A stretch of 64,000 nt of DNA from an uncultured Pseudomonadota bacterium (GCA_963770835.1 CAVYRH010000004.1:256001-320000); one strand, 5' to 3'. Shown: positions 3,515 through 20,917, numbered from the stretch's first letter. Numbers and translations are program-made. The notes: generated by a model not told the origin, from the sequence alone.

Positions 3515-4138
3515 ATGGAAAGCGGCAAAAAGGAGATCGGGAAGGCCCAGGTCGCCTTCGCGGGCAAGTTCCAGGCTTTCGTGGATTACCAAAGCCCCGA
3601 AGCCGACGCCCTGGCGCGGGAGCGGGATAACATTCAGCTTTTTGCCCTGACCCTGGTGAGGGTCCTCTTCCTTTTGGGGGAGAACAAGCAGGCGCCCATG
3701 CTGCTGGAATACCTCCAAACCGCCATGGGGGACACGGTTACTCCCAAGGGCCTGAACCGGCCCACCATCCTGGGGCAGGGACAGGTTTTGGTGGACGTTT
3801 CGCCGGAAAAACCCGAGCGGTTGATGGTTTTAAGGCTTATCCAGGAAGAGGAAAGCCGGCTGGCCGAAATCACCCTTCCCCTGGGCGACGAAGCGCATTA
3901 TTACCCCGCAACGGTCATCTTTTATTTCCAATACCTCCTGCGAACCCTTGTTGAGCCTTCCCTCTTTTTCCTGATGCTGGTGCTGGGGGGCTTGATGGAA
4001 TATTACGAGAAGATCGGCAAAACCAACGACCTAAAGGCCCTGACGGACGGCCCCGCTTATGGTTTTTCAACCGCCATCCGGTACATCAACGAGGAACGGC
4101 GCCGGAACCCCCCCGCGCCCGGGCCGGGGGCCAACTAA
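3515..4138 (+). CDS. Hypothetical protein, co-transcribed with galK
   Basis: Long ORF with host-like codon use whose stop is 1 nt before the galK ATG; start uncertain (3482 or 3515). Confidence 0.7.
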   Translation: MESGKKEIGKAQVAFAGKFQAFVDYQSPEADALARERDNIQLFALTLVRVLFLLGENKQAPMLLEYLQTAMGDTVTPKGLNRPTILGQGQVLVDVSPEKPERLMVLRLIQEEESRLAEITLPLGDEAHYYPATVIFYFQYLLRTLVEPSLFFLMLVLGGLMEYYEKIGKTNDLKALTDGPAYGFSTAIRYINEERRRNPPAPGPGAN

Positions 4139-4139
4139 G

Positions 4140-5312
4140 ATGGCCTTCTCCCTCAGAGAACAAACCGGGGATCTTTTTTTAAAGACCTTCGCGGCCAAGC
4201 CCGAAATAACGGTGATGGCACCGGGCAGGGTCAACCTGATCGGGGAGCACACCGATTACAACGAGGGCTATGTCCTGCCCATGGCGGTGGACCGGGGCAT
4301 CGCCATCGCGGGCCGCAAACGCAACGACCTCAAGATCACCCTTTATTCCGCCGATTACCAGGAACAGGACGAGTTTTCCGTGAACGCCATCCGGCACGAT
4401 ATCAGCCGGCCCTGGGCCAATTACTTCAAGGGAGTGGCCCTGCTGTTGAAGCAAAACGGAATCCCATTAGGCGGCTGTGAGGCCGTCCTCAAGGGCGACC
4501 TGCCGCAAGGCGGGGGCTTGAGTTCCTCCGCGGCGCTGGAAGTGGCCTCGGCGGTTTTCCTGAAAAAGCTCTTCGGCGTGGACATGGAAGACCTGGATTT
4601 GGTCCGTCTCGCCCAAAAAGCGGAGAATGAATTCGTGGGCGTGCAATGCGGGATCATGGACCAGTTCGCCTCCCACATGGGAGGCAAGGACCACGCCCTT
4701 TTCATCGATTGCCGCAGCCTGGAGCACGACTGGGTCCCCCTGGGAACGGGCTTGAAAGTGGTGGTTTTCAACACGGGCATCAAACGGGAGCTGGCCTCCT
4801 CCGATTACAATGAGAGGCGGCGCCAGTGCGAGGAGGGGGTCCGCGAGTTCTTGAAGTTCCTGCCGGGCATCCAGTCCTTAAGGGACGTTTCCCTCTGCGA
4901 CTTCGAGAAATACCAGGCCCAGCTGGAACCGGTGATCATGAAACGCTGCAGGCACGTGATTTCCGAAAACCAAAGGGTATTGGATACCGTGGAAGCCCTG
5001 AAGGCCAAGAACCTTGAAAGGGTGAAAGTGCTCTTCCGTGAATCCCACGAGAGCCTCCGGGACGATTATGAAGTCAGCTGCCACGAGCTGGACACGCTGG
5101 TGGAATTGGGCCAGGAACATCCGCTTCAGAAGGGCTCCCGCATGACGGGCGCGGGTTTCGGGGGCTGCACCGTGCACTTGGTGCCCGCCGAGGAACAGGT
5201 CGTGGAAAACTTCATCTCTTTCGTTTCGGAAGGCTACCAAAGGCGGATCGGCCGGAAGCCGGAATATTACGTTTTCACGGCCTCGCCGGGAGCGAAGTTC
5301 CTTAACGGCTAA
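4140..5312 (+). CDS. galK: Galactokinase
   Basis: APGRVNLIGEHTDYN, GLSSSAALE, CGIMDQF, SRMTGAGFGGC. Confidence 0.93.
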   Translation: MAFSLREQTGDLFLKTFAAKPEITVMAPGRVNLIGEHTDYNEGYVLPMAVDRGIAIAGRKRNDLKITLYSADYQEQDEFSVNAIRHDISRPWANYFKGVALLLKQNGIPLGGCEAVLKGDLPQGGGLSSSAALEVASAVFLKKLFGVDMEDLDLVRLAQKAENEFVGVQCGIMDQFASHMGGKDHALFIDCRSLEHDWVPLGTGLKVVVFNTGIKRELASSDYNERRRQCEEGVREFLKFLPGIQSLRDVSLCDFEKYQAQLEPVIMKRCRHVISENQRVLDTVEALKAKNLERVKVLFRESHESLRDDYEVSCHELDTLVELGQEHPLQKGSRMTGAGFGGCTVHLVPAEEQVVENFISFVSEGYQRRIGRKPEYYVFTASPGAKFLNG

Positions 5313-5318
5313 GATTGA

Positions 5319-5416
5319 ACCACAGAGTACACAGAGGACACGGAGTAAGGCCTGAAATATAAATATCATCCTTAATTGTTTAAGACTTACTTTGTGTACT
5401 CTGTGACCTCTGTGGT
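5319..5416. repeat. Periodic inverted-repeat element (9-nt unit ACACAGAG)
   Basis: Left arm ACCACAGAG-TACACAGAG-GACACGGAG, AT-rich spacer, right arm CTTTGTGTA-CTCTGTGAC-CTCTGTGGT. Confidence 0.9.
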
Positions 5417-5456
5417 GATAGTTTTTTGCCGGAAATCTTTTATTTAGGAACCATCA

Positions 5457-6362
5457 ATGAAACCCACACTCCTCATCATGGCCGCCGGCATGGGAAGCCG
5501 CTACGGGGGCCTCAAGCAAATGGAAGCCATGGGCCCCGAGGGCGCCACGCTGCTGGATTATTCCATTTACGACGCCATCCGCGCGGGGTTCGGGAAAGTG
5601 GTTTTCGTCATCCGCCATGACATCGAAGCGAATTTCAAGAAACTGGTGGGGAAGAAGTGGGAACCCCAAATCCCAGTCCGCTACGTCTTCCAGGAATTGG
5701 GCATGATCCCGGAGGGGTTCAAAGTCCGGGAGGGCCGCCAAAAGCCCTGGGGAACGGGCCACGCCGTTTGGGTGGCCCAGGGCGCCATCCAAGAGCCCTT
5801 CGCGGTCATCAATGCTGACGATTTTTACGGGCGGAATTCCTTCAAGGCGCTGGCCGGTTTCCTGAAAAAAATCCGCCAGAACGAGGCGGCAGCCTATGCC
5901 ATGGTGGGTTTTCCCCTTTCGAAGACCCTTTCCGAACACGGGACCGTGGCCCGGGGAATCTGCCGGATCGGGCCGGGGAAGAAACTCAAGGAAGTGGTGG
6001 AACGCCTCCAGATCGGCAAGGAAGGCCGGAAGATTTATTACCTGGACGAGTCGGGGCGGAAGCACCCTTTGAAAGGGACGGCCACGGCCTCCATGAATAT
6101 CTGGGGCTTTACACCCCGTCTTTTCGAACAGCTCAACCGGGGCTTCATGGAATTTTTAAAGCAAAAGGGCGGTGATTTGAAGGCCGAGTTCCTCCTGCCC
6201 CGCGCGGTGGATGACGCCATCGCCAAACGGAAGGCCACCGTCCAGGTGCTTTCCACCAAGGACCCCTGGTTCGGGGTGACCTACCCGAACGACAAGGAAA
6301 AGGTCCGGGCCAAGATGGAAGAACAGGTTAAAAGACACCTTTACCCCGTCCGGCTTCATTAA
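5457..6362 (+). CDS. Sugar-phosphate nucleotidyltransferase (NTP transferase family)
   Basis: MAAGMGSRYGGLKQ, KPWGTGHA, VINADDFYG, WFGVTY. Confidence 0.88.
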   Translation: MKPTLLIMAAGMGSRYGGLKQMEAMGPEGATLLDYSIYDAIRAGFGKVVFVIRHDIEANFKKLVGKKWEPQIPVRYVFQELGMIPEGFKVREGRQKPWGTGHAVWVAQGAIQEPFAVINADDFYGRNSFKALAGFLKKIRQNEAAAYAMVGFPLSKTLSEHGTVARGICRIGPGKKLKEVVERLQIGKEGRKIYYLDESGRKHPLKGTATASMNIWGFTPRLFEQLNRGFMEFLKQKGGDLKAEFLLPRAVDDAIAKRKATVQVLSTKDPWFGVTYPNDKEKVRAKMEEQVKRHLYPVRLH

Positions 6363-6534: not shown

Positions 6535-6554
6535 TATAATGGTTAACCGTTAAC
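6535..6554 (+). promoter_or_regulatory. -10 box TATAAT with adjacent operator-like palindrome
   Basis: TATAAT (6535-6540) followed by GTTAAC-C-GTTAAC (6542-6554) over the expected +1. Confidence 0.65.
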
Positions 6555-6663
6555 TTTATTTTGACCTGTGGAATTCGTGCCGCACCCCTTTTTTTCTGAA
6601 TCGAATCATGATTAGTTTGTTAGACTGGCCTTCAAGAGCGATCGAAAGGGAGCCCCACCACCG

Positions 6664-7419
6664 TTGAAAACGATCCCGATCTTAACTAGTTCCCTGGCGG
6701 TTTTGCTTTTGGCCGGCTGTGGAGCGGTTTTCGTGAACAAGGGTTCGGTCCAGGAACCCTTAAGCGACGGCCTGGTCAACCCGGACCAGAATCGCCCCAA
6801 GATCACCGTACCCCATGACCAGGAAGTCATCGGCAATTTCGATGACGGCTCCACCAATATGAACCCCCAGCTTTACAAAGCCCCCAACGGCACCTGGTCC
6901 GCCTATTCCTACGCGGGTAACACCGTGAATTATCCCTTCGTCGTCGCGGGCGGCGCGAACGGCACCAAGATGGCCGCCCACGTTTCCGGGACACTCGCCA
7001 ACAAGGGAGACGCCACCTATCCGGCCTTCCTCTTGTCGGGCAAGTTCACGCCCGCCGGTTACTATGACGCCGGCGCCTTCTCGGGCATCCGTTTCTACTA
7101 CAAATGCCCCAACGACCAGGCCTCAAACCGGCGTTTCAACATCGCCACCGCCCCCACCACGCCCCCCTCCGCAGGCGGGACCTGCGCCAGCAACTGCTAC
7201 GACCATTTTGGCCAGGACCTGTCCCAGGCGAACGACTGGACCCTGGTGACAGTCTCCTTCAAGGACGCGAAACGCATCGGGTGGGGCAGCCCCGTCGCGC
7301 CCCCGGATTTCACCGACCACTTAAACCAGATCATCGATATCGAATGGACCCACAATACGCAGAATACGCCGGGCAAGGTCACGATCGACTATTGGGTGGA
7401 TGAGGTGGAGTTTTACTAA
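6664..7419 (+). CDS. Lipoprotein with CBM11/CIA30-like beta-sandwich domain
   Basis: Lipobox LAGC; IGNFDDG, YYDAGAFSGIRFYYK, WTLVTVSF, C-terminal WVDEVEFY. Confidence 0.75.
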   Translation: MKTIPILTSSLAVLLLAGCGAVFVNKGSVQEPLSDGLVNPDQNRPKITVPHDQEVIGNFDDGSTNMNPQLYKAPNGTWSAYSYAGNTVNYPFVVAGGANGTKMAAHVSGTLANKGDATYPAFLLSGKFTPAGYYDAGAFSGIRFYYKCPNDQASNRRFNIATAPTTPPSAGGTCASNCYDHFGQDLSQANDWTLVTVSFKDAKRIGWGSPVAPPDFTDHLNQIIDIEWTHNTQNTPGKVTIDYWVDEVEFY

Positions 7420-7445
7420 GTCAAATTCGGTTCATTGAGGGCACT

Positions 7446-9893
7446 TTGCCGCCACGGTTTAAAACATTTTTAACCAGCGTCTTCTTCCTCCTGCTCATTG
7501 TGGGAACTGGAACCGGTTCCGTTTGGGCCCATCCCTTGGATAACGTCACCTCCGACGAGTCCCTCTACCAACGCGTGCAAAAACTGGCCGACGCCGGCCT
7601 TTTGGACCCCGCGGACCGGCAGGTGCTGGACCAGGGAAGAGTGGTGACGCGCCTGGAACTGGCTTTTTATGTCGAGAAGGCCCAATCCCACCTGCAAATG
7701 GCGGCCGCCACAAGAATTTCCACCGAAAAATCCACAGCCTCTTCCCCCTCGCCCGAGGCGGCAACCGGCCTGGAGCGGGAGATCCTGGACCTGTTGAAGG
7801 AACTGGAGGAGGAGTCTTCCTACTTGCGCACCCGGTTGGCCTTGGACGACGAAAGGATCCACCAACAGGAAGCCGAACTGGACCAGCTGATTTCGGACCA
7901 GGACAAGGTCGAGTCCGCTTTCAACACGGCCAACAAGGCCAGCGGAACGCCCCATTTCACTTCCATCTCCGACGAGAAGGTTGAGAACATCAATGTCTCG
8001 GGCCTTTACCGGGCGGGCGCCACCCGGTTGACCAACGAGGTCAATCTGGGCGTCTGGAGTGACCTGGGCGGCAAGGGTTCCGTCAACCTGGGGCTGGGCG
8101 GCTACGTCTTCGGTTCCAACGCCTCCGCCAGCCCGGTTTCCGTCTATCTTTTCTCTCCCTCGGTCAACTACAACCTGGATGGGAAACTTGGCCACTGGAG
8201 CTTCACCGTGGCGCAGGAAGACTATACCTACGACACGGACCTGGGCAATTTCACCCGCGGCTTGCAGCCCGGCACACTGCGCTTCGAGAACCCTTTCGAC
8301 GTGAAACGCTACTCCAGCGACAAGGACATGAAGAACTGGGATGACTACATGACCAACCTGGGCTACGTGCCCAGCTCCGAAGCTTGGGTGAACCAAAACA
8401 GCACGGTCAAGGTCTTTGACGGTTTCTACGGCGTGGGCACCCAGCTTCCCCTGGTCAGTTCGGACGCCCGGGCTACCTTACTCTTCGGACCCAACAACAA
8501 CGCCATCTTCCCCAACCAATGGGAGGAAGGGCTCAAATACAGCCAGCCCTGGCTGGGAGGGAAACTCCTGACCGCATTTTCCACCGAGTGGGTGAACGAC
8601 AATTACGGGATCACGCCGCCCGGCAGCCCCTCCATGGACATGAAAGATTACGAGGCTAATTTCGGGATCGACCTCTATCCGGTCTTTATCAGCCTCGACG
8701 CCGGATTCTCGAGTTTTTACACCGGCATCGACACCCGCAACCCCTCGGACCCGCAAGCCCTGGTCGCCCCGGCGGGCCTGGCCTCCCTTTCCATCTACCC
8801 GCTGACCCTCTACTACACGGCCGTCAGCGACGGTTACGCCGACATGCAAAGCAAGGTGGTGCTGGCCGGGTTCAACCCGACCCGCTACGGGGAACCCTAC
8901 CTCATCAACGCCAGCAGCGGGAGCAACATCGGGTCCAGCAACGCCAGTTTTTTCGAGAACCCGGGCTATATCGGCATGGTGGACGACCTGGTCAGCAACC
9001 GTTACGGCTGGCGCGCCAACCTGGGATGGAAGGGACGGCAGGAAAGCTGGACCAAGGACCTGCCCTCCTTCCTGGACGATATCGTGATCAATTTCGACAT
9101 GGCCCAAAAGACCGAGTACACGGTCCAGACGGACGAGGCGGGGTACAACGCGGTCCAGGTGAACGACCTGATCACCGTCTTCTATCCCGAGGACACGGGC
9201 ATCTGGGGGAACACCCTTTGGGGCGGATATAACGGAGCCGGGCCCATGGCCACGGCTTACGACGCCAATATCGCTTCCCTGCGGAATAATGGAGTGACCG
9301 AAACCTACACATTGTTGGGGAACGGCTATTACCAAAGGATTCCCTTCATCCTGCCGGTTTATTCCGCCGCAGGCACCATCCAGACTTCCGGGGGCGCCAA
9401 CGTTTATACGCAGTTGGACCATATCAAGACCTACAACTACGTCACCCTTACCACCAAGTTCCAGTTCAATAAGATGTTCGGCCTGCCCACCCCCCTTTAC
9501 GGAAGTTTCTTCTTCACGGACAACGGCGTTTCCGGCTTCAGCAACAACCCGGCGATCGCCAATATGCCCGACCCCTACCGGCCGGGGCAGACCTTGCAGT
9601 CCATTCCCAACCTCTTCGACCAGACGGTTTACGACGCGGCCCTCATGTACCAGGTGGTGCGCAACGTGAACCTGATGGCCGACTACGGCCTGGAATTTTG
9701 GAAGTCGGATTACACCTATCCCCTCGTGGATGAGAGGACCGATTCCTTCGGCCTGGGGATGGCCTATGACCTGCCCTGGGGCGGCGGCAAGTTGGAAACG
9801 CGCTACAAGCACCTGATTTTCCAGGACACCTACGTCCCGGCCAATAATTACCAGGCGGACCAGGTTTACGTTTATTTGCTGTTCCAGTTTTAA
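7446..9893 (+). CDS. Outer-membrane protein 1: signal peptide, SLH-like domain, coiled coil, large beta-barrel
   Basis: LYQRVQKLADAGLL...VTRLELA (SLH-like), heptad region, C-terminal beta-signal VYVYLLFQF. Confidence 0.75.
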   Translation: MPPRFKTFLTSVFFLLLIVGTGTGSVWAHPLDNVTSDESLYQRVQKLADAGLLDPADRQVLDQGRVVTRLELAFYVEKAQSHLQMAAATRISTEKSTASSPSPEAATGLEREILDLLKELEEESSYLRTRLALDDERIHQQEAELDQLISDQDKVESAFNTANKASGTPHFTSISDEKVENINVSGLYRAGATRLTNEVNLGVWSDLGGKGSVNLGLGGYVFGSNASASPVSVYLFSPSVNYNLDGKLGHWSFTVAQEDYTYDTDLGNFTRGLQPGTLRFENPFDVKRYSSDKDMKNWDDYMTNLGYVPSSEAWVNQNSTVKVFDGFYGVGTQLPLVSSDARATLLFGPNNNAIFPNQWEEGLKYSQPWLGGKLLTAFSTEWVNDNYGITPPGSPSMDMKDYEANFGIDLYPVFISLDAGFSSFYTGIDTRNPSDPQALVAPAGLASLSIYPLTLYYTAVSDGYADMQSKVVLAGFNPTRYGEPYLINASSGSNIGSSNASFFENPGYIGMVDDLVSNRYGWRANLGWKGRQESWTKDLPSFLDDIVINFDMAQKTEYTVQTDEAGYNAVQVNDLITVFYPEDTGIWGNTLWGGYNGAGPMATAYDANIASLRNNGVTETYTLLGNGYYQRIPFILPVYSAAGTIQTSGGANVYTQLDHIKTYNYVTLTTKFQFNKMFGLPTPLYGSFFFTDNGVSGFSNNPAIANMPDPYRPGQTLQSIPNLFDQTVYDAALMYQVVRNVNLMADYGLEFWKSDYTYPLVDERTDSFGLGMAYDLPWGGGKLETRYKHLIFQDTYVPANNYQADQVYVYLLFQF

Positions 9894-9944
9894 GTGATGA
9901 AGAAAAGTGAAAAGGATGAAGGACCAAAAGTGGAAATGACGAGA

Positions 9945-12119
9945 ATGAAAACAAAACCCTTCCTGCCGCTCCTGGCGGCTTTGGCCTTAACGGCCCTGCC
10001 GGCTTTTGCCGACCACGGCCCCACTGCGTCTACCCAAAGGGACCCCTGGATCGATTCGAGCCTGGAGGACCTGGTCCAGGCCGGACTGGTGGATTCCTTC
10101 GGCCGACCGGTGAGCCAGATGACCAACCTAGAAGTGGCCCAGGCCACGGCCGCCGCGGCGAAAAAACTGCAATCGCCGGATGAAACGGCATCCCAACCCC
10201 TTCCGGCCCAAACCAAGGCCGATGAAAGCCTGGGGAAACTGGTGGAGGAGTTCAAAAGCGAACTGGCCCTGATGGACGTGGACGTGGTCAAGGTGGAGGA
10301 CCGAATCCATGAGGAAGAGAGGCGCAACGGGGAATTCGCCGCCCTGCAGCAGGAATACCTGAAGCGCACGGGGACCCAGGTTTCGGGCTATGCCCGGGGC
10401 TACTTCGACACTTACCGGGGTTTCGGCCCCAACGCGGCCTTTTCGTCCATGAGCTACAACGACGTCATGTTCGCCGACATTCTCCTCAAGAGCGTGCCTG
10501 TGCCTTTCGTGCTTTTCGACGCGGACTTGCGCCTGATCCGCACCATCGGTTTTTCCTACGCTGACCCCATTCTGCCCGAATACAACCTGCGCTGGCTTTC
10601 CCTAACCAACGTGAACGAGGTGGCCAACCTGACCGCCGGGGACTTTTACCAGCACTACACTCCCCTGACCCTTTGGAACTCGGAGATACCCGTCTATACC
10701 CTCACCGAGCCTTCCTCCTATGAGCGGGTGCGCAAGGACGTTGAGGAACTGGTCTACCTGGACCACGGCCCGGACTGGCACATGCGGGGCTTCGAGCTCT
10801 CCTCGGATCAGGCCCTGTCGGATACCTCCATCCCCTTGAGTTCCTTCCACGGCCAGGCCATGGCGGGCGAGCTCCAGTCCGCGGCCCAGTACAGCTTTGC
10901 CCAGGACTACGCCGGGGGCGAAGCAGGCCTGGACTTTTTCAACGACAAGGTGGAGATCAAGGCCACCGGCCTTTCACTTTGGGACCAAAGCCAGTATTCG
11001 GACGTGCCCTATATCCCGGGCCTCTTCTCCACTTACTCGCAGCAGTACCAGATTGGAAGCCTGCTGGCCTCCGGCAACTTTTCCCTCCAGGATGACGCCA
11101 ATATCATCGCTTCGGTCGAAGTGGCTGGGTCCCGCTACCAGGAAGACGCCACCAACCCCCAAAGCGTGCTGGAGGATTCGGCTGTCCGGGGTGTGGGCAC
11201 GTTGAACCTCTCTACCTTGCACGTGACCGCCAAGTACCTTTACAACGGGCCCTACTTTTATTCCCCTGGGGCCCAGACCAACCGCTACACGCCCTACCCC
11301 GGCACTGCCGGTTACCTGAGCACCAACCAAAACCTGGATGACGCCCTGCCCGGATACCTTAACAACTACGTCTTCCAAGGGGTCAACCGCCCGGGTTTCG
11401 CGCCTTACGACCGCATCGCGGAAAACATCCTGCCCTACGGCGACGCCTCGCCCAACCGCGAGGGGTTCGTCTTCAACGGCTCCGTGGGACTGGGGAAGGA
11501 CGGCTGGCTCGTGCCCCAAGCCCAGGCGGAGGTCGGCATGAAAGAGGTCCAACCCAACCTTATCCTTCTCTCCAGCGGCGGGACGACCTCGGTGGACGGC
11601 CTGACCGAGGGCCGCAACTTCACCGGAATCGAAACAGCCTTGACCGCCAACCTGTCCAAGGCCCTGGACGGCCTGCCTTCCACCTGTGACGTATCGTTCG
11701 ATTACAAATACCAGGAAACGGATTTGGGGCTGAGTACCCCCTTTGTGGTAAACACCTTCATCGCTTCGGCCGACGCCGGGCCCTTCCCGGACCTGCCCTT
11801 GCTGGACGGCCTGATTCTTTCCCTGGCCTATGAGGAGGCGCAGGGAAGTGGAAGCGAGTTTGTTTTGAACTCGCTGGGCAATCCCCCCACCCTGGCCCAG
11901 TATCCCGACTACCTGGATTCGAACCTGGCCGACAACAGCTATACCTACCAGACCCTGGACATCACGCGCACTTCCTGGGCCTTTGGCGCCAGGCTCCCTT
12001 TAAGCAAGAGCGCCGAGGTGCACGCGGACTACTTCATCAACCAGTACACATGGACCAGCCAGCCCAGCTACGGCCGCCAGGATCAGATATGGAGGGTGAC
12101 TTATGAACTCACCTTCTAA
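9945..12119 (+). CDS. Outer-membrane protein 2: signal peptide, SLH-like domain, coiled coil, large beta-barrel
   Basis: AFA cleavage site; WIDSSLEDLVQAGLV...MTNLEVA; LGKLVEEFKSELALM; ends RVTYELTF; start 9936 or 9945. Confidence 0.75.
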   Translation: MKTKPFLPLLAALALTALPAFADHGPTASTQRDPWIDSSLEDLVQAGLVDSFGRPVSQMTNLEVAQATAAAAKKLQSPDETASQPLPAQTKADESLGKLVEEFKSELALMDVDVVKVEDRIHEEERRNGEFAALQQEYLKRTGTQVSGYARGYFDTYRGFGPNAAFSSMSYNDVMFADILLKSVPVPFVLFDADLRLIRTIGFSYADPILPEYNLRWLSLTNVNEVANLTAGDFYQHYTPLTLWNSEIPVYTLTEPSSYERVRKDVEELVYLDHGPDWHMRGFELSSDQALSDTSIPLSSFHGQAMAGELQSAAQYSFAQDYAGGEAGLDFFNDKVEIKATGLSLWDQSQYSDVPYIPGLFSTYSQQYQIGSLLASGNFSLQDDANIIASVEVAGSRYQEDATNPQSVLEDSAVRGVGTLNLSTLHVTAKYLYNGPYFYSPGAQTNRYTPYPGTAGYLSTNQNLDDALPGYLNNYVFQGVNRPGFAPYDRIAENILPYGDASPNREGFVFNGSVGLGKDGWLVPQAQAEVGMKEVQPNLILLSSGGTTSVDGLTEGRNFTGIETALTANLSKALDGLPSTCDVSFDYKYQETDLGLSTPFVVNTFIASADAGPFPDLPLLDGLILSLAYEEAQGSGSEFVLNSLGNPPTLAQYPDYLDSNLADNSYTYQTLDITRTSWAFGARLPLSKSAEVHADYFINQYTWTSQPSYGRQDQIWRVTYELTF

Positions 12120-14445
12120 CGTAAAAACTTTTCACCACAGGCCGCCTTCGGCGGCGCACAGAGTTCACGGAGTAAATCTTTTGGGATTAAAACTTGTAGT
12201 AGCTTTCCTGCTGGCCCTCGCGGCCGCTGGCGGGGCCGCCGCCAACGCCATCTTCGACCAAGTACCGGCGGGCGACCCAACTTATGCCAGCCTGGAAAAG
12301 CTTGAAAATGCGGGGTTGCTGCCCGCAGGGGCCGCCCAACCTCCCCTGTCCCGCTATGATGTTGCGTTGGACATCTCGAAAGCCCGCGGCAAGTATGACC
12401 AAATAGTCTTAGCCCAGGCTGGCGACGAAATCCCCCCACCCCCGAGCGATCTGTCGACCATCAACAGTACCCCGACTCCCACACCCAAACCCACACCCGT
12501 ACCATTAACTGATTTGGCCAAGACCCTCACTAGCCTGGAAGAGGCCTACCAATACGAATTGAAAGCGGTCAAGGCAAGCCTCCAGTCGATCCAAAGCGAG
12601 GCGGATGAAGTGGACGCCAAACAATACGAACTTCGCAAGAGAATCATGGGCATCACCGAATACCCCAGCCTGTCGGTGCACGGTTTGGGCCGGGCCTTCG
12701 GTTTCTCCCAACAATATGTGGGCCCCACACCTCCCTATGTGATCCAACCCGGTGTCCAGCAGTCCTTTGGCTACCTGGACCTGGAACCCGAAGGGGTGGT
12801 CAGCAAGCAGGTGAGCTGGAACGCCATCCTGCGCCTGGAAACGTCCTTTCAGCCCAACGCGGCCCCGGTCATCACTTTCCGGCGCGCCTCGATGGATTTC
12901 AGCCCCGAATGGTTCTCGGCGGACCTGGGGGATTTCGACGAGGCCTACACGCCCTTCACCCTTTGGAACCGCGACACGTTGGACCTCAAGTACGTGCCCG
13001 AAATGATCGCCCGGGAGGACGATACCGCCAAATACGAAAGCTTTTTAAACAATGAGCCCGAATGGCCCTTCCGGGGGGTGAGGATCGGCACCAAGCTCCT
13101 GTGGCCCAACTCGGACGTGTTGGACGAATTCCACGTTTCCACCTTCGCCGACATGATCCACAACAACGCGGCGGATTACGGTGTTTTCATCACTCCCCCC
13201 CAATATATCGACTGGCTTTTCGGGGGAACGGCCGGGATCAAGTCCAAGAAGTGGAAATGGGACGGGACCACTTGGCAGGCGGACATCGAGACTTACGGCA
13301 TCATCATGGACCAGCCCCTAGATACCACCCCCGGAGTAGCACCCTATAATCCCCTGGATGTGACGACCTGGGCGCACCAATACCTGATCGGGAGCGTCAA
13401 ACCGGGACTCAAGGTGGACTTGGGTGACGGCACCACGGTGGGCGGCTCGGTGGAATACGCCACTTCCAGCTACCAAGATGACAAGCTGGACTCCAACCGG
13501 GTCATCGTGGACAACGCTCTTTTTGGAAGTTTGTTCGTCCAAGAAGGGGCCTCGACGGTTTCCTTCAACTACCTTTACGTGGGGCCTTACTATTACTCCC
13601 CCATGGCCCAGACCCGGCAGGACGCGGTCACGAACCTTTCCAATCCCGCCGGGCTTTCCTATTTAAATTCCCCGGACCTTTTCTCGGCACCCCTGCGCGG
13701 GCAGGACTTTTTGACCGCTATACCACGGGCCGGGGGAATCTTCGGTTTTTACGACCGCACCCAGGACAACACCTTCCCCTACGGCTTGGCTACCCCGAAC
13801 CGCAAGGGGATCGGGATCGACGCAGACATCGAGGCCCTGGACCATAAGGCCCTGAAGATTCTGGGGTCGGCTTATTTTGTGCAGGAAATCCAGGACGACC
13901 TGGTGAACAACTTACCCGATACGGCCCTGGTGCCAGTGGACGCGTCCGTGGGGACGTCCTCGGTAGCACTGCGGAATTTCACCTACATCAACGCCGGGCC
14001 TTCCCTGAACGTGGGGCCCCTGCTGGGGCTGGGACGGGACGTGGAACTAGGGACCAACGTGCGGATGGAACAAACCACCAGCTGGGTCGGAACCCTGACC
14101 AGCACCTGGATCATCGGCGGCGTTCGGGTGGAGATCCTGCCGGTTTGGGAGGTCTCAGCCGCCTTTAGCAACCAAGAGTCCAAGGGTACGGAAGAAGGCT
14201 TTAACGGGACCCTTTGGGCCCAGTATCCCTACTTGTTCGACAACTCGGACCTGGGGTCTTATGCGCCGTTCACCGTCAACGGCAGCAACCAGAGCTGGCG
14301 GTTCTCGAACCTGTTCAAGGTCAACCCCAATTCCACCATCTACCTGGACGCGGATTGGACCAGCGGCAACCTGATGCCCGTCAGCGCTTCCAACCCCACC
14401 CTGATCAACCAGTTTTACGAGGTGACTTATGAAGTACGGTTCTAA
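12103..14445 (+). CDS. Outer-membrane protein 3: signal peptide, SLH-like domain, PT linker, coiled coil, large beta-barrel
   Basis: FDQVPAGDPTYASLEKLENAGLL...LSRYDVA; ends EVTYEVRF; shares YTPxTLWN, YLYxGPYxYSP and PYGxAxPNR with OMP2. Confidence 0.75.
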   Translation: MNSPSNVKTFHHRPPSAAHRVHGVNLLGLKLVVAFLLALAAAGGAAANAIFDQVPAGDPTYASLEKLENAGLLPAGAAQPPLSRYDVALDISKARGKYDQIVLAQAGDEIPPPPSDLSTINSTPTPTPKPTPVPLTDLAKTLTSLEEAYQYELKAVKASLQSIQSEADEVDAKQYELRKRIMGITEYPSLSVHGLGRAFGFSQQYVGPTPPYVIQPGVQQSFGYLDLEPEGVVSKQVSWNAILRLETSFQPNAAPVITFRRASMDFSPEWFSADLGDFDEAYTPFTLWNRDTLDLKYVPEMIAREDDTAKYESFLNNEPEWPFRGVRIGTKLLWPNSDVLDEFHVSTFADMIHNNAADYGVFITPPQYIDWLFGGTAGIKSKKWKWDGTTWQADIETYGIIMDQPLDTTPGVAPYNPLDVTTWAHQYLIGSVKPGLKVDLGDGTTVGGSVEYATSSYQDDKLDSNRVIVDNALFGSLFVQEGASTVSFNYLYVGPYYYSPMAQTRQDAVTNLSNPAGLSYLNSPDLFSAPLRGQDFLTAIPRAGGIFGFYDRTQDNTFPYGLATPNRKGIGIDADIEALDHKALKILGSAYFVQEIQDDLVNNLPDTALVPVDASVGTSSVALRNFTYINAGPSLNVGPLLGLGRDVELGTNVRMEQTTSWVGTLTSTWIIGGVRVEILPVWEVSAAFSNQESKGTEEGFNGTLWAQYPYLFDNSDLGSYAPFTVNGSNQSWRFSNLFKVNPNSTIYLDADWTSGNLMPVSASNPTLINQFYEVTYEVRF
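12131..12165 (+). repeat. Left arm of the 9-nt-unit repeat, interrupted by a mini-hairpin
   Basis: TTCACCACAG-[GCCGCC-TTC-GGCGGC]-GCACAGAG-TTCACGGAG; no right arm seen. Confidence 0.65.
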
Positions 14446-15151
14446 ACTCTTCGCTCTTTTGGCCGTGACGACCCTGATGGGCTGGGGCTGCCAATCCATG
14501 GCTCCCACAAGTTCGGTCGGGGGATCGGCGGCCAACTCGCCCAATGAGGTCATCAACTTCGAGGGTTCACCGGCCACAGTGGTTAATTCGCATTTGGCCG
14601 AAGCTGGGGTTCCGGGAAACACCGTGCAAGTCCCGGGTACCATTAGCGTGGATGTGCCCGGTGGGGTGACCTTTGAGGGCATCGTGTCGCCCGGGGCCAA
14701 CGGAACGGCCCATGCCTACCAGATGTCCGGGCCCGTGACCGGTTCCATATGCCAAATGATCATCAAGCTGGATACGGGCTCCGCTTCAGGCTATTACAAC
14801 GCCAGCCTCTTCAAGGGCGTCCAGTTTTACATGAGGGTCATGCCCGACGACACTTGCACCTCAAGACAATTTTCCATTCCTATCGCCCAAACCATGCCGG
14901 TGACCAACGGGGGAACCTGCTTGAGCGGTTGTTACGACCATTTCGGCTATACCTACCAGGGCACGGGTGGCAACTGGCAGTTATACGCCCTGAATTTTTC
15001 GTCCCTCACGCGCAGTAGTTACGGAAGCGCCGTCAACCCACCCACCCTGACCGGCTCCAACCTGGCGCAGTTTGTCCAGTTGCAGTGGCAGCAAAACGGC
15101 GGCGGTTCCAGCAACGCCGATTTCGGCATAGATGAGGTACAATTTTATTAA
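14429..15151 (+). CDS. Lipoprotein with CBM11/CIA30-like domain (paralog of 6664..7419)
   Basis: Lipobox-like GWGC; GANGT, GYYNASLFKGVQFY, GGTCLSGCYDHFG, DEVQFY. Confidence 0.75.
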   Translation: MKYGSKLFALLAVTTLMGWGCQSMAPTSSVGGSAANSPNEVINFEGSPATVVNSHLAEAGVPGNTVQVPGTISVDVPGGVTFEGIVSPGANGTAHAYQMSGPVTGSICQMIIKLDTGSASGYYNASLFKGVQFYMRVMPDDTCTSRQFSIPIAQTMPVTNGGTCLSGCYDHFGYTYQGTGGNWQLYALNFSSLTRSSYGSAVNPPTLTGSNLAQFVQLQWQQNGGGSSNADFGIDEVQFY

Positions 15152-15261
15152 TTCAAACCCAGGGTTTACGGGGGACTATCCGCCCATCGGGCCCAGTACC
15201 AAGGGCACGGGATGTTCTCCCGCTTGAAGGTTTGAGCTGCTGAGAGTTGAGGAGGTTTGAC

Positions 15262-16488
15262 ATGAAGATAAAATGGTTTGCATTCCTATTCCTGACCGTG
15301 GCCCTGGCTTTTACCCTTTGGCTGACCCAAGGCTGCAACAAGAATGTCCCCACGCTGGCGACCATGGCTGTTCCAACGGTAACGCCTTCCACCAGCTGGT
15401 ATTTTGAGACCAGTTCCGCCATCGGGTCGGGGAAGAACCAGTGGAATGACACCGGTTTTAACGACTATGCCGGCACTCCTGTCCCCGGCACGACAAGCTG
15501 GAGCCAGCCGGGGTACAACGGCTCGGTCGGCTGTTTAAACGATGCTATTACTTTCACCGCTTCGAAGCAGTCGGATACGGTGCAGTACACCCCTTCCACG
15601 GGCCTTAATTTTATACAGCTGGGCGTCAACAGCATCAGTTTTGAAGTCTGGGTCGATGGTTCCCTCAACAGCACGACCGTGCAAATTTATTTTCAAAGTG
15701 GATCGGGCACCTGGGAGTGGAGCAACCAAATGTCCGTGACCGCAGGTGGTTGGAATAATGTTACTTTCACCCCCACTTGGGTGAAGAGCGGTGAAAGCCC
15801 CACCAACGTGCAATCTTTCTGGATCACGCTCATCTCCGGAGGCGCGGGAACCGGCAATTTTAAATTGGATAATATCATGCTCAACCCTGGAACCATTGTC
15901 CCCACCCCGACTCCTCCACCCGTCGCATCTCCAACGGCTACCTTCACACCGGTGTCGGCTTACAGCTGGTATTTCGATAGCAGCACCATGGGCGCAGGAG
16001 GAAACGACATCGGTACGGCGGCAAACCAATCAGGAACCTGGTATGACCAAGGGGGGCAGGGGGTAACCGGCGTCGTGAGTTGGGCCACCCCTGGTTATAA
16101 CGGTTCCACGGGTTGTTTTCAGAGCTTCGTCACCTTTACAACGACAGGACAATCGGACCAGATTCAGTACAATTTGCCAAGCCCGATGAACTGGACCTCA
16201 ATGGGAGTTATCGGTATCCGCGCAGAAGTTTGGGTCGACAATACCCTGGATAACACGACCCCCGTGGCTCAACAATTCACCTCAAGCGGCTCGGGTTCCG
16301 TTTGGGAATATGGCGGTTATACCAGCTTGACGGCCAACGCATGGACATTTACCAGTTTTGTCCCCCCTTTCAGCACTACCGGAACCGATCCAACCAACGT
16401 CAAAAGTTTCTGGTTCAGGATTACGACGAACGGCGGCACGTCGTTTGGCAGTGGAAACGTCAAACTAGACAATATCGAGCTTTATTAG
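15262..16488 (+). CDS. Lipoprotein with two tandem CBM-like beta-sandwich domains and a Pro/Thr linker
   Basis: SD GGAGG; lipobox-like TQGC; duplicated SWYF...SWxxPGYNGSxGC...EVWVD...WE...GNxKLDNI; linker PTPTPPPVASPTATFTP. Confidence 0.75.
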   Translation: MKIKWFAFLFLTVALAFTLWLTQGCNKNVPTLATMAVPTVTPSTSWYFETSSAIGSGKNQWNDTGFNDYAGTPVPGTTSWSQPGYNGSVGCLNDAITFTASKQSDTVQYTPSTGLNFIQLGVNSISFEVWVDGSLNSTTVQIYFQSGSGTWEWSNQMSVTAGGWNNVTFTPTWVKSGESPTNVQSFWITLISGGAGTGNFKLDNIMLNPGTIVPTPTPPPVASPTATFTPVSAYSWYFDSSTMGAGGNDIGTAANQSGTWYDQGGQGVTGVVSWATPGYNGSTGCFQSFVTFTTTGQSDQIQYNLPSPMNWTSMGVIGIRAEVWVDNTLDNTTPVAQQFTSSGSGSVWEYGGYTSLTANAWTFTSFVPPFSTTGTDPTNVKSFWFRITTNGGTSFGSGNVKLDNIELY

Positions 16489-16500
16489 CCCCGTGCCGGG

Positions 16501-17424
16501 CTAGGGGCCTGTCCCCGCCTTGCGCGGGCTTCCCAAAAAGTTCTTCGCTACTTCCACGCAATCGGGATATTGGTTCATCTTGACGACCTTCCGGTAGTAG
16601 ATCCGGGCTTCCCTCTGTTTGCCCATCCGGGCCAAGGTGTTTCCCATGTTGAAAACATAAAGGCTCTCCTGCGGATTTTTCTGGCTGGCGATGAGGAGGT
16701 ATTTGAAGGTGTGGGCCCAATCCTCCTTGGTGGAGTAATAGGCGGCCAGTGAATTGTAGGCGAAGGAGTCATTGGGAAAATAAGTGAGAGCCAGGCGGCA
16801 CAGCCGATGGGCGTGATCCCAATTGTCCGGGCCACCCTGGCCCAGGTAATAAGCGATTGGCTGGTGGATCAAGGGTTTGATGAAATGGGAACGGGGTTGG
16901 GGCAGTTCCTGGTCGCCCGCCCATCTGAGCTTTTCCTTGTTCTTGCGTTTATCCGCGTATTGGAGGGCGTGAATCAACACGTTATATTGGGAATTGAAGT
17001 CGCCCATGTCCTGATAGAGGCGGGCCAGGTTGAAGGAAATGTCCAGGCGCCAGGGGCGGGAAGCGATGGCAGCCTGCCAGCAAGTGACGGACTGGGACAT
17101 CAAGGCCCGGTCAAAATAGGAAGGGTCCCTGGCGGGAGGATCGGTCCCTGGTACGGACGGCGGGCACCAAACCACTGGTGTTTCCACCACCGCCGGCTTG
17201 GAAAGAGGGGGCGCTTTGCTTTCGGCCTTCAAGAAAAAATAATTTCCCGCGGCCACGAACCATTCGGCGTCGTCCGGATTGGTTTGACGCCAATCCTGGA
17301 GGGTTTTTTCCATCGTGCCAAAATCACTTTTTTGGAATTGCGCGTCGAATTGCTCCGGATAGCCCGCGAAAGCCCGTGAAAAAAAACTCGCCACCAGCAG
17401 GAGGGCGGGCACAAAGTTCCGCAT
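16501..17424 (-). CDS. Exported tetratricopeptide-repeat protein
   Basis: Signal peptide (AFA); TPR-like helices FNLARLYQDMG, AYNSLAAYY, FNMGNTLARMG. Confidence 0.75.
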   Translation of the reverse strand: MRNFVPALLLVASFFSRAFAGYPEQFDAQFQKSDFGTMEKTLQDWRQTNPDDAEWFVAAGNYFFLKAESKAPPLSKPAVVETPVVWCPPSVPGTDPPARDPSYFDRALMSQSVTCWQAAIASRPWRLDISFNLARLYQDMGDFNSQYNVLIHALQYADKRKNKEKLRWAGDQELPQPRSHFIKPLIHQPIAYYLGQGGPDNWDHAHRLCRLALTYFPNDSFAYNSLAAYYSTKEDWAHTFKYLLIASQKNPQESLYVFNMGNTLARMGKQREARIYYRKVVKMNQYPDCVEVAKNFLGSPRKAGTGP

Positions 17425-20835: not shown

Positions 20836-20881
20836 AGAAGCCTTATCCTTTTCTTTTGTGGCAAAATTCAGAAGTTCTTTA

Positions 20882-20902
20882 CTTTGTGCCTGTGCGGTTA
20901 AA
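20882..20902. repeat. Possible solo right arm of an 8-nt-unit repeat
   Basis: CTTTGTGC-CTGTGCGG-TTAAA resembles the right-arm ends of the other elements. Confidence 0.35.
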
Positions 20903-20917
20903 ATGCCTTGAGGTTTT

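What the first reader, a model, noticed from the sequence alone, without database searches (positions are those of the whole stretch)
6535..16488. Candidate undescribed glycan-capture system: three SLH-tethered beta-barrels plus three CBM-like lipoproteins
Seen: one co-oriented block (lipoprotein, OMP1, OMP2, OMP3, lipoprotein, lipoprotein) with short or overlapping junctions. Each ~725-815 aa OMP has a signal peptide, a degenerate SLH motif, a coiled coil and a C-terminal Phe beta-signal. OMP2 and OMP3 share GDFxxxYTPxTLWN, YLYxGPYxYSPxAQT and YDRxxxNxxPYGxAxPNRxG; OMP1 is more divergent. Lipoproteins 1 and 2 share GANGT, GYYxA..FxGxxFY and GGTC..xCYDHFG. Known: SLH-stalk-barrel is the OmpM/SomA porin architecture, which trimerises and tethers the outer membrane to peptidoglycan; SusCD systems pair TonB-dependent barrels with glycan-binding lipoproteins. 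Inference: a SusCD-analogous but TonB-independent uptake machine, possibly a heterotrimeric porin with lipoprotein lids. No glycoside hydrolase or TonB gene lies in the block.
Basis: partly seen in the sequence, partly recalled or inferred. Interest (0 to 1): 0.88.

Follow-up and report, generated by a model that had tools for sequence, protein, structure and literature searches.

The report
Stalked three-barrel glycan-uptake cassette
An uncultured soil and peat bacterium (candidate division FCPU426) carries a strictly conserved operon of three stalked outer-membrane barrel proteins and lipoproteins with a predicted sugar-binding fold, which likely forms a little-known, TonB-independent way of capturing and importing plant glycans while also pinning the outer membrane to the cell wall.

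Summary
In detail: six co-oriented ORFs (Lp1, OMP1, OMP2, OMP3, Lp2, Lp3) with abutting or overlapping junctions. None matches Pfam or NCBIfam.

- **Conservation:** the Lp1-OMP1-OMP2-OMP3 core is conserved in 41 of 41 and 42 of 42 testable related loci. These come from 29 assemblies, nearly all labelled candidate division FCPU426. The window's own genome has three copies.
- **N-termini:** profiles of all three OMP families match the SLH-plus-stalk part of Veillonella OmpM1, although the Pfam SLH model does not match.
- **Barrel:** an AlphaFold2 model of OMP2 (pLDDT 84) shows a helical stalk and about 22 beta-strands. Foldseek's listed matches are all outer-membrane barrels, with no specific family.
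- **Lipoproteins:** the Lp1 model (pLDDT 90) is a beta-sandwich closest to CBM11.
- **Context:** 18 of 47 loci sit beside glycoside hydrolases, sugar regulators or sugar-binding proteins, and the window's cassette falls in that clade. Another 23 sit in a housekeeping neighbourhood (lepA, signal peptidase).
- **Relatives:** Goldbacteria carry a two-barrel version.

The closest published analogue is the Cytophaga chu_1276-1280 "atypical PUL", but homology to it was not tested here. This scan has noted the same operon before in another genome.

The parts
6664..7419 (+). Lp1: lipoprotein (LLLAGC lipobox-like), predicted beta-sandwich of CBM11-like fold from about residue 55 to 250
   Evidence: ORF. 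N-terminus. AF2 model pLDDT 90.3. Foldseek top hits CBM11 6r3m E 7.2e-8 and 1v0a TMt 0.74. An Lp1-like gene lies upstream of OMP1 in 40 of 41 loci, plus a divergent one in L056.
7446..9893 (+). OMP1: signal peptide, SLH-like head and coiled coil (about residues 29-172), then a 640-residue C-terminal domain of a separate family ending in a Phe beta-signal
   Evidence: Profile A3 vs 8bys E 2.3e-5. hhalign to the OMP2/OMP3 N-termini. C-terminal domain not significantly like the OMP2/3 barrel. Terminal F in 38 of 39. No structure model was made for it.
9894..12119 (+). OMP2: signal peptide, SLH-like helices (51-62, 78-93), stalk helix (104-157), about 22-stranded beta-barrel (160-740)
   Evidence: AF2 model pLDDT 83.9, pTM 0.74. 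Foldseek: 395 hits E<=1e-3, and the rows listed are all outer-membrane barrels. Profile vs OmpM1 8bys E 1.4e-4.
11247..11456 (+). OMP2 residues 452-521: long loop without regular secondary structure, confidently modelled, carrying the family's most conserved motifs (GPYFYSPGAQT; YDR..EN.LPYGDA.PNR); inferred channel-lining or constriction element
   Evidence: DSSP string and pLDDT blocks of 76-89. Invariant columns S457 P458 G459 A460 Q461 R507 E510 N511 P514 Y515 G516 P520 R522, kept in OMP3.
12103..14445 (+). OMP3: full-length paralogue of OMP2 (SLH-like head, Pro-rich linker, coiled coil, barrel)
   Evidence: hhalign OMP2 vs OMP3 E 5.5e-68. Profile A4 vs 8bz2 E 1.3e-3. Directly downstream of OMP2 in 42 of 42 loci.
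14429..15151 (+). Lp2: lipoprotein, paralogue of Lp1 (same CBM11-like family)
   Evidence: 35% identity to Lp1. Joint alignment A2. At least one Lp1/2-like gene downstream of OMP3 in 31 of 41 loci.
15247..16488 (+). Lp3: lipoprotein with two tandem ~170-residue domains (15385-15900 and 15901-16488)
   Evidence: Halves 43% identical, E 1e-38. Atlas feature search points to CBM4_9/CBM30/galactose-binding-like clusters, score 0.92 with 167 shared features, a lead only. Not significantly like Lp1/2 by hhalign. Lp3-like gene downstream in 4 of 41 loci.
4059..6362 (+). Context: galactokinase (4059-5312) and a nucleotidyltransferase (5457-6362) directly upstream; the same two families flank related cassettes
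   Evidence: Pfam. Same families next to L027-type loci.

Best explanation
This is a conserved six-gene cassette of three outer-membrane proteins, each with an OmpM-like N-terminal head and stalk and a C-terminal beta-signal (a barrel of about 22 strands is predicted for OMP2), plus lipoproteins predicted to have a CBM11-like fold. It likely works as a TonB-independent glycan capture and uptake unit that is also tethered to the cell wall.

Shown:
- The gene order and its strict conservation.
- Profile-level homology of all three N-termini to the OmpM1 SLH/stalk.
- A confident barrel model for OMP2, and by homology for OMP3.
- A confident CBM-type beta-sandwich model for Lp1, and by homology for Lp2.
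- Placement of the window's cassette in a clade whose members sit beside glycoside hydrolases and sugar regulators.

Inferred:
- The lipoproteins bind glycan chains at the cell surface and hand them to the barrels.
- Oligosaccharides pass by diffusion through the OMP2/OMP3 barrels, whose conserved internal loop would line the channel.
- The three stalks pair into one heterotrimeric coiled coil, so that one OMP1, one OMP2 and one OMP3 form a unit anchored to peptidoglycan.
- In Goldbacteria the older two-gene form would do the same with two protein types.
For: Synteny: OMP1 is directly upstream of OMP2 in 41 of 41 loci, OMP3 directly downstream in 42 of 42, and Lp1-like upstream in 40 of 41 (on 47 loci from 29 assemblies). 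There are three full cassettes in the window's genome. In the phylum, 60 of 99 genomes are hit, with own family 30 of 30, mostly with even numbers of OMP2/3-type matches. Junctions abut or overlap, which fits coupled, equimolar expression.

Stalk: profile hits to OmpM1 8bys/8bym/8bz2. Stalk helix 104-157 in the model. The membrane-proximal coil has a fixed length in 33 of 33 cassettes for each type, and OMP2 and OMP3 head-to-barrel spans co-vary (Spearman 0.78, not corrected for kinship).

Barrel: about 22 strands, pLDDT 83.9. Foldseek lists only outer-membrane barrels. Conserved terminal Phe. No Plug or TonB-dependent-receptor match at E<=1.

Lipoproteins: CBM11 best fold match, followed by SGBP-B, CBM30, CBM29 and CBM4.

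Glycan context: GH44 directly upstream of the contig C8 cassette. 18 of 47 loci have GH, CBM, LacI, AraC, SBP or GalK neighbours. The window falls in a clade (support 99) of 14 such loci, 3 unlabelled and itself.

Ancestral pair: OMP1-like plus OMP2-like plus Lp-like genes in 5 of 5 Goldbacteria-type loci examined (names).

Lineage: FCPU426/Goldbacteria includes a cellulose-bound degrader (PMC7031533, passages).
Against: - No binding, transport or expression data exist.
- The window's own block holds no glycoside hydrolase.
- 23 of 47 loci lie beside lepA, signal peptidase, hemN-like and hrcA genes, a housekeeping setting that needs no glycan role.
- OMP1's head-to-barrel span does not co-vary with OMP2 or OMP3 (rho -0.18 for both), which gives no support for OMP1 sharing their stalk.
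- OMP1's C-terminal domain was not modelled and is not detectably related to the OMP2/3 barrel.
- The Pfam SLH and CBM_11 models do not match (0 of 57 family members hit CBM_11, 2 of 57 hit CIA30).
- Foldseek TM-scores for the barrel are low (0.22-0.36 on the query), so only the general fold class is established.
- Whether the lipoproteins face outward is unknown.
Confidence: 0.5

Rival explanations
1. General envelope tether and porin set. The three proteins would be this lineage's OmpM/SlpA-type outer-membrane anchors and general diffusion pores, with the lipoproteins as structural or assembly partners. The glycoside hydrolase neighbours would be incidental, or reflect only a need for more pores when growing on sugars.
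For: 23 of 47 loci lie in a housekeeping neighbourhood. Every genome of the own family has at least one cassette (30 of 30). No other SLH-type protein is detectable in the genome, and no Pal reaches the curated cut-off. OmpM itself has the dual tether/porin role (PMC10628300, passages).
Against: The accessory copies form their own clade tied to GH, regulator and SBP genes. The lipoproteins have a carbohydrate-binding-module fold. The genome has 5 OmpA-domain ORFs that could tether the membrane. This rival does not exclude uptake; it denies only glycan specificity.
Confidence: 0.25
2. Three separate homotrimers. Each OMP would trimerise with itself as OmpM1 does, and the operon simply co-expresses three different pores, with OMP1 being a different kind of channel.
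For: All solved OmpM-type stalks found here are homotrimers (8bys, 8bym, 8bz2: three chains per entry, or six over the two entries 8bym and 8byt, of one sequence). 'Heterotrimer' occurs 0 times in PMC10628300. OMP1's linker length does not co-vary with the others.
Against: The strict 1:1:1 gene set is kept through every duplication of the cassette. Genes are coupled by abutting or overlapping junctions. The two-gene ancestral form duplicated only its OMP2-type gene to reach three. OMP2 and OMP3 linker lengths co-vary. None of this is direct.
Confidence: 0.3
3. Surface-display or export device. The barrels would move the CBM-like lipoproteins, or neighbouring enzymes, to the cell surface and hold them there, rather than import sugars.
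For: Usher barrels (FimD, PapC) are among the top Foldseek rows. Lipoprotein genes always accompany the barrels.
Against: The usher matches have TM 0.22-0.30 and rmsd 14-20 A, no better than porins or TonB-dependent barrels. No chaperone or secretion-type gene was seen in the cassette.
Confidence: 0.1

Closest known systems
OmpM of diderm Firmicutes (Veillonella parvula OmpM1; PDB 8bys, 8bym/8byt, stalk 8bz2; PMC10628300, passages read)
   Same: Domain order is signal peptide, SLH-type head, coiled-coil stalk, C-terminal barrel with terminal Phe. There are profile-level sequence matches over the head and stalk, including the L..EF..EL...GV.V..LEDR stretch.
   Different: The Pfam SLH model is not matched. 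The barrel has about 22 strands and 580 residues, against 16 strands in OmpM1 (paper passage). There are three distinct protein types in a fixed operon instead of one. There are Pro-rich linkers of 100-270 residues, accompanying CBM-fold lipoproteins, and glycoside hydrolase neighbourhoods.
Cytophaga hutchinsonii chu_1276-chu_1280 'atypical PUL' for cellulose (PMC12016534, passages read)
   Same: The parts list is similar: two large outer-membrane proteins in tandem, CBM-like partner proteins including a bimodular one of 375 aa (Lp3 here has two tandem domains, 413 aa), a partner fold closest to CBM11 entry 6R3M (the same top hit as Lp1), an adjacent endoglucanase (GH44 next to the contig C8 copy), and no SusC/SusD.
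   Different: Here the barrels carry an OmpM-like wall-binding head and stalk, there are three barrels, and the lineage is not Bacteroidota. Sequence homology to CHU_1276/1277/1278/1279 was not tested here because I could not obtain those sequences. Earlier notes of this scan claim it for related stalked pairs.
SusC/SusD (TonB-dependent transporter plus SGBP-A) of Bacteroidota PULs
   Same: An outer-membrane barrel plus glycan-binding lipoprotein cassette that recurs beside different glycoside hydrolases and sugar regulators. The barrel is of about 22 strands.
   Different: No plug, TonB box or TonB-dependent-receptor match at E<=1; the N-terminus is a stalk instead. The lipoproteins are beta-sandwiches, not the helical SusD fold. 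The genome has 8 TonB-dependent receptor matches over the curated cut-off (two of them with an in-frame stop) plus one weak match elsewhere.
SlpA of Deinococcus/Thermus (PMC9388160, seen in the search listing and abstract only; the 30-strand figure is recalled)
   Same: SLH head, long coiled coil and an unusually large barrel.
   Different: SlpA is a single protein forming homotrimers. No SlpA chain was among the Foldseek rows listed. SlpA has no CBM lipoprotein partners.

Membership tests
OmpM / SLH-tethered porins | N-terminal SLH domain recognised by the curated SLH model (PF00395) | tested here: not met
   No SLH match for OMP1-3 at E<=1. 0 matches in the whole genome at E<=0.01, while the controls Synechococcus, Thermus, Deinococcus and Thermotoga ring.
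OmpM / SLH-tethered porins | Sequence homology of head and stalk to a solved OmpM | tested here: met
   Profiles vs PDB: OMP2 family 8bys E 1.4e-4, 8bym 4.9e-4, 8bz2 8.8e-3. OMP1 family 8bys 2.3e-5, 8bz2 1.4e-4. OMP3 family 8bz2 1.3e-3. The E-values are modest.
OmpM / SLH-tethered porins | Coiled-coil stalk followed by a C-terminal outer-membrane beta-barrel | tested here: met
   OMP2 model has helix 104-157, then about 22 strands, with outer-membrane barrel matches only among the listed rows. The strand number differs from the 16 of OmpM1.
OmpM / SLH-tethered porins | Homotrimer; binding to peptidoglycan or secondary cell-wall polymer | not testable with these tools
No biochemical data exist.
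SusC/SusD-type PUL transporter | TonB-dependent barrel with N-terminal plug | tested here: not met
   No Plug or TonB_dep_Rec match at E<=1. The modelled N-terminus is head plus stalk.
SusC/SusD-type PUL transporter | SusD-like helical lipoprotein partner | tested here: not met
   The Lp1 model is a beta-sandwich, and its best matches are CBMs.
Cytophaga chu_1276-1280 atypical PUL | Sequence homology to CHU_1276/CHU_1277 barrels and CHU_1278/1279 partners | not tested
   No tool gave me these sequences. Word-limited searches returned only FCPU426/Goldbacteria proteins and one unnamed stalk-less relative, P0180. The exhaustive profile search was still queued.
Cytophaga chu_1276-1280 atypical PUL | Tandem large OMP genes plus CBM-like (CBM11-like fold, one bimodular) partners, next to a glucanase, without SusC/SusD | tested here: met
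   compared with passages of PMC12016534. The glucanase neighbour is at the paralogous C8 cassette, not in the window.
CBM11 (CAZy family, Pfam PF03425) | Match to the CBM_11 sequence model | tested here: not met
   No match for Lp1, Lp2 or Lp3 at E<=1. 0 of 57 family members hit CBM_11 at E<=0.1. Profile vs PDB CBM11 gives E 0.35-0.41.
CBM11 (CAZy family, Pfam PF03425) | CBM11-type beta-jelly-roll fold | tested here: met
   Foldseek: 6r3m E 7.2e-8 TMt 0.72; 1v0a E 9.1e-8 TMt 0.74.

The most novel reading that the evidence does not exclude
The cassette builds a heterotrimeric, peptidoglycan-anchored three-barrel machine: one OMP1, one OMP2 and one OMP3 joined by a mixed coiled-coil stalk, with CBM-fold lipoproteins feeding it glycan chains. 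That would be the first hetero-oligomeric OmpM-type tether. It would also be a stalked branch of a SusC/SusD-independent glycan importer class shared with Cytophaga, copied and re-targeted to different polysaccharides across FCPU426 and Goldbacteria.
Probability: 0.3. Interest if true: 0.85.

Novelty: new variant of a known kind. Interest (0 to 1): 0.7.

Why it matters
Outer-membrane glycan import is understood mainly through SusC/SusD-type TonB-dependent systems and a few specific porins. The Cytophaga two-barrel system is genetically essential for cellulose use but mechanistically unsolved.

A related-looking cassette that also carries an OmpM-like wall anchor would link two questions: how the outer membrane is tethered, and how polymers get across it. 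It recurs one to four times per genome beside different glycoside hydrolases in a whole candidate phylum.

It also offers many natural variants for structural work and a marker for finding polysaccharide loci in FCPU426/Goldbacteria genomes. If the three stalks form a mixed trimer, that would be a new assembly principle for OmpM-type proteins.

Tried and rejected
- **Family libraries:** Pfam and NCBIfam scans of all six proteins gave nothing usable.
- **Lipoprotein sequence searches:** phmmer of Lp1 and Lp3 against the PDB gave nothing. The Lp family profile against the PDB gave only non-significant CBM11 hits.
- **Promoters and terminators:** the scan found no more sites than shuffled sequence.
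- **OMP1 barrel:** hhalign of the OMP1 C-terminal domain against the OMP2/3 barrel was not significant. The Atlas feature search for it pointed to unnamed clusters, DUF6029 and Porin_4. DUF6029 (PF19494) then found nothing in the genome at E<=1, so that lead was dropped.
- **Lp3:** hhalign against the Lp1/2 family was not significant.
- **Strand counting:** a crude strand count from hydrophobic alternation was uninformative.
- **Reaching Cytophaga or Bacteroidota:** two profile searches meant to do this returned only the family itself.
- **Complex prediction (three stalks, OMP1 as partner):** never accepted because the queue was full. No verdict exists on hetero- versus homotrimer.
- **S-layer reading:** rejected because the OMP2 model is a closed barrel with outer-membrane barrel matches.
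- **TonB-dependent reading:** rejected because no plug domain is found.
Full report
**What is in the window.** One search confirms six co-oriented ORFs on the + strand.

| ORF | Coordinates | Length (aa) |
|---|---|---|
| Lp1 | 6664-7419 | 251 |
| OMP1 | 7446-9893 | 815 |
| OMP2 | 9894-12119 | 741 |
| OMP3 | 12103-14445 | 780 |
| Lp2 | 14429-15151 | 240 |
| Lp3 | 15247-16488 | 413 |

The junctions are 26 nt, 0 nt, a 17-nt overlap, a 17-nt overlap and 95 nt. All six have hydrophobic N-termini. The three small proteins have a Cys at the end of that stretch. The three large ones end in an alternating hydrophobic strand with terminal Phe. Neither Pfam nor NCBIfam recognises any of the six at E<=1. 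A consensus scan for promoters and terminators gave no more sites than shuffled sequence.

**Relations between the parts.**
- OMP2 and OMP3 are full-length paralogues (hhalign E 5.5e-68, 24% identity).
- OMP1 shares only its first ~140 mature residues with them (E 8e-10 and 5e-11). Its 640-residue C-terminal domain is not detectably related to their barrel (E 0.096).
- Lp1 and Lp2 are paralogues (35% identity).
- Lp3 consists of two tandem domains that are 43% identical (E 1e-38). It is not significantly similar to Lp1/2 by profile comparison.

**The head and stalk.** The curated SLH model does not match and finds nothing in the whole genome at E<=0.01, while the control genomes ring. Family profiles nevertheless hit the solved Veillonella OmpM1 chains over the signal peptide, SLH and coiled coil:
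- OMP2 family: 8bys E 1.4e-4, 8bym 4.9e-4, 8bz2 8.8e-3.
- OMP1 family: 8bys 2.3e-5, 8bz2 1.4e-4.
- OMP3 family: 8bz2 1.3e-3.

The printed alignment shows a shared L..EF..EL...GV.V..LEDR stretch. I read this as a divergent but homologous OmpM-type head and stalk. The E-values are modest.

**The barrel.** The AlphaFold2 model of OMP2, built from 46 sequences, has mean pLDDT 83.9 and pTM 0.74. It has short helices at 51-62 and 78-93, a long helix at 104-157, and then about 22 long strands from 160 to 740. Residues 452-521 form a long loop without regular secondary structure. It has block pLDDT of 76-89 and carries the most conserved motifs of the family. I infer that it lines or constricts the channel.

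Foldseek against the PDB gave 395 matches at E<=1e-3. The rows listed are all outer-membrane barrels: FimD/PapC ushers, OprD/Occ channels, MOMP, chitoporins and the TonB-dependent receptors FemA, FpvA and ZnuD. TM-scores are only 0.22-0.36 on the query. This establishes the fold class and nothing more specific. No OmpM or SlpA chain was among the listed rows. Its barrel nature rests on the conserved terminal Phe (38 of 39) and on feature-search leads only.

**The lipoproteins.** The Lp1 model, built from 57 sequences of the Lp1/Lp2 family, has pLDDT 90.3. Its best structural matches are the family 11 carbohydrate-binding module of Clostridium thermocellum Lic26A-Cel5E (6r3m E 7.2e-8, 1v0a TMt 0.74). 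After these come CIA30, a mannanase CBM, the xyloglucan SGBP-B proteins of Bacteroides, CBM30, CBM29 and CBM4. In all, 84 matches have E<=1e-3.

At the sequence level the family is outside CBM11: 0 of 57 members hit CBM_11 and 2 of 57 hit CIA30. A conserved Cys pair (C174, C178) fits an extracytoplasmic protein. For Lp3 only a feature-search lead points to CBM4_9/CBM30-like clusters (score 0.92 with 167 shared features).

**Conservation.** A pattern scan of one genome per species returned 47 loci from 29 assemblies. Most are labelled candidate division FCPU426; the rest carry generic or differing labels (uncultured bacterium, proteobacterium, Firestonebacteria).

| Feature | Count | Loci counted |
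|---|---|---|
| OMP1 directly upstream of OMP2 | 41 of 41 | at least 2700 nt of upstream sequence |
| OMP3 directly downstream of OMP2 | 42 of 42 | at least 2500 nt downstream |
| Lp1-like gene before OMP1 | 40 of 41 | the 41st, L056, has a divergent ORF with a partial hit |
| At least one Lp1/2-like gene after OMP3 | 31 of 41 | at least 1200 nt after OMP3 |
| At least two Lp1/2-like genes after OMP3 | 20 of 41 | same |
| Lp3-like gene after OMP3 | 4 of 41 | same |

The window's genome holds three full OMP triads, on contigs C4, C8 and C26. In the GTDB phylum, 60 of 99 genomes have a match to the OMP2/3 barrel profile. All 30 other genomes of the own family have one, mostly in even numbers from 2 to 8, which corresponds to one to four cassettes.

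**An older two-barrel form.** In five loci taken from other families of the phylum, hmmsearch with my family models found an OMP1-like gene (775-860 aa) next to a single OMP2/3-like gene (700-760 aa), with Lp-family lipoproteins beside them. Named relatives of these are Candidatus Goldbacteria MAGs. The triad therefore arose by duplication of the OMP2-type gene. One far relative, P0180 (552 aa), has the OMP2-type barrel without any stalk (E 2.8e-15 to my OMP2 model). Its source is unnamed.

**Genomic context.** Clustering of flanking ORFs and Pfam scans of representatives split the loci as follows.
- 23 loci have a housekeeping neighbourhood. Upstream is a roughly 1400-aa ORF starting with TRAM and a U5 methyltransferase domain. 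Downstream are LepA, signal peptidase I, a HemN-like radical SAM gene and HrcA.
- 18 loci have sugar-related neighbours: GH44, GH2, GH31 with PA14, F5/8-type C, CBM11/CIA30, a sialate-esterase-like protein, LacI, AraC, ABC sugar-binding protein, galactokinase and nucleotidyltransferase.
- 6 loci are too short to label.

In the window's genome, the contig C8 cassette has a GH44 gene where Lp1 would be. The window's own cassette is preceded by galactokinase and a nucleotidyltransferase. On a FastTree of 46 OMP2 sequences, the window falls in a clade with support 99 that holds 14 sugar-context loci, 3 unlabelled loci and itself. Two sugar-context loci lie among the housekeeping ones. So the cassette exists as one widely kept copy and as extra copies that travel with glycan-degrading genes.

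**Mechanism.** I commit to a dual reading. The heads anchor the outer membrane to the wall as in OmpM. The barrels, served by CBM-fold lipoproteins, take up oligosaccharides without TonB.

The heterotrimer idea rests on indirect evidence:
- The 1:1:1 gene set survives every duplication.
- The genes are coupled by abutting or overlapping junctions.
- The step from two to three gene types matches a trimeric stalk.
- The membrane-proximal coil has a fixed length in 33 of 33 cassettes for each type.
- OMP2 and OMP3 head-to-barrel spans co-vary (rho 0.78, uncorrected for kinship).

Against it, OMP1's span does not co-vary with either (rho -0.18), and all solved OmpM stalks are homotrimers. Complex prediction could not be run, so this stays open.

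**Comparison with what is known.** I read passages of four papers.
- PMC10628300: OmpM1 is a 16-strand homotrimeric porin with an SLH stalk.
- The Witwinowski preprint: OmpM is typical of Terrabacteria, and Pal/OmpA of Gracilicutes.
- PMC7031533: the FCPU426 16S cluster corresponds to Goldbacteria, which includes a cellulose-bound degrader.
- PMC12016534: the Cytophaga chu_1276-1280 atypical PUL has two outer-membrane proteins, an SGBP-like protein, a bimodular CBM-like protein whose C-domain fold is closest to CBM11 6R3M, and an endoglucanase.

The last is the closest published parts list. I could not obtain the CHU sequences, so homology is untested here. This genome also has 5 OmpA-domain ORFs, no Pal above the curated cut-off, and 8 TonB-dependent receptor matches over the curated cut-off plus one weak match.

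**Novelty.** Four searches found no paper describing this cassette among the listed results:
- 'FCPU426' (134 papers, 15 listed).
- OmpM/SLH/outer membrane/heterotrimer.
- SLH/porin/PUL/CBM/lipoprotein.
- CHU_1276/CHU_1277 (5 papers).

Supplements were not examined. This scan has noted the same FCPU426 operon before in another genome (e1-760555), and stalked barrel pairs elsewhere (e1-9998287, e1-7893837). I reproduced the operon, fold and context findings independently, but not the claimed Cytophaga homology. I rate it a new variant of a known kind: an OmpM-type tether combined with a Cytophaga-like, SusC/SusD-free glycan module.

Noticed in passing
L022:1754-6100 and 21 other loci (e.g. L031:2088-6365): Directly upstream of the housekeeping-type cassettes lies a conserved ORF of about 1400 aa. 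Its first ~490 residues are TRAM plus a tRNA/rRNA U5-methyltransferase domain. The remaining ~900 residues match no Pfam family. This would be an unusual fusion if the ORF is real.
   Followed up: no
L008:14820-17402 (- strand; own genome, contig C8): An 860-aa GH44 protein occupies the position that Lp1 holds in other cassettes. Only residues 376-626 match GH44, and the flanking ~600 residues are unassigned.
   Followed up: partly
window 16501-17424 (- strand): A convergent 307-aa TPR protein with a signal-peptide-like N-terminus ends 13 nt after Lp3. A TPR protein also lies near the cassette in L010.
   Followed up: no
OMP1 profile positions 134-244: The OMP1 family profile matches PDB 10aw_A / 10dn ('50 kDa outer membrane protein', 473 aa, six chains in two entries) at E 1.9e-4 over the stalk and first barrel strands. 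I did not identify this protein or look at the alignment.
   Followed up: no
L028, L036, L025, L041, L044 (MAG loci): In some metagenome-assembled loci the OMP genes are split into two or three ORFs. These are likely frameshifts or assembly errors rather than biology.
   Followed up: no
G000:C8:184554-185519 and G000:C5:320052-321215: Two of the genome's TonB-dependent receptor matches contain an in-frame stop, one TGA and one TAG.
   Followed up: no
P0180 (552 aa, unnamed source): A stalk-less relative of the OMP2-type barrel, starting directly with barrel strands and ending in ...YYIMKF. It may belong to the stalk-less, Cytophaga-like branch.
   Followed up: partly
window 19693-22846: A glucose-dehydrogenase-like gene and a glycogen debranching enzyme (GDE_N/GDE_C) lie about 3-6 kb downstream of the cassette.
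   Followed up: no
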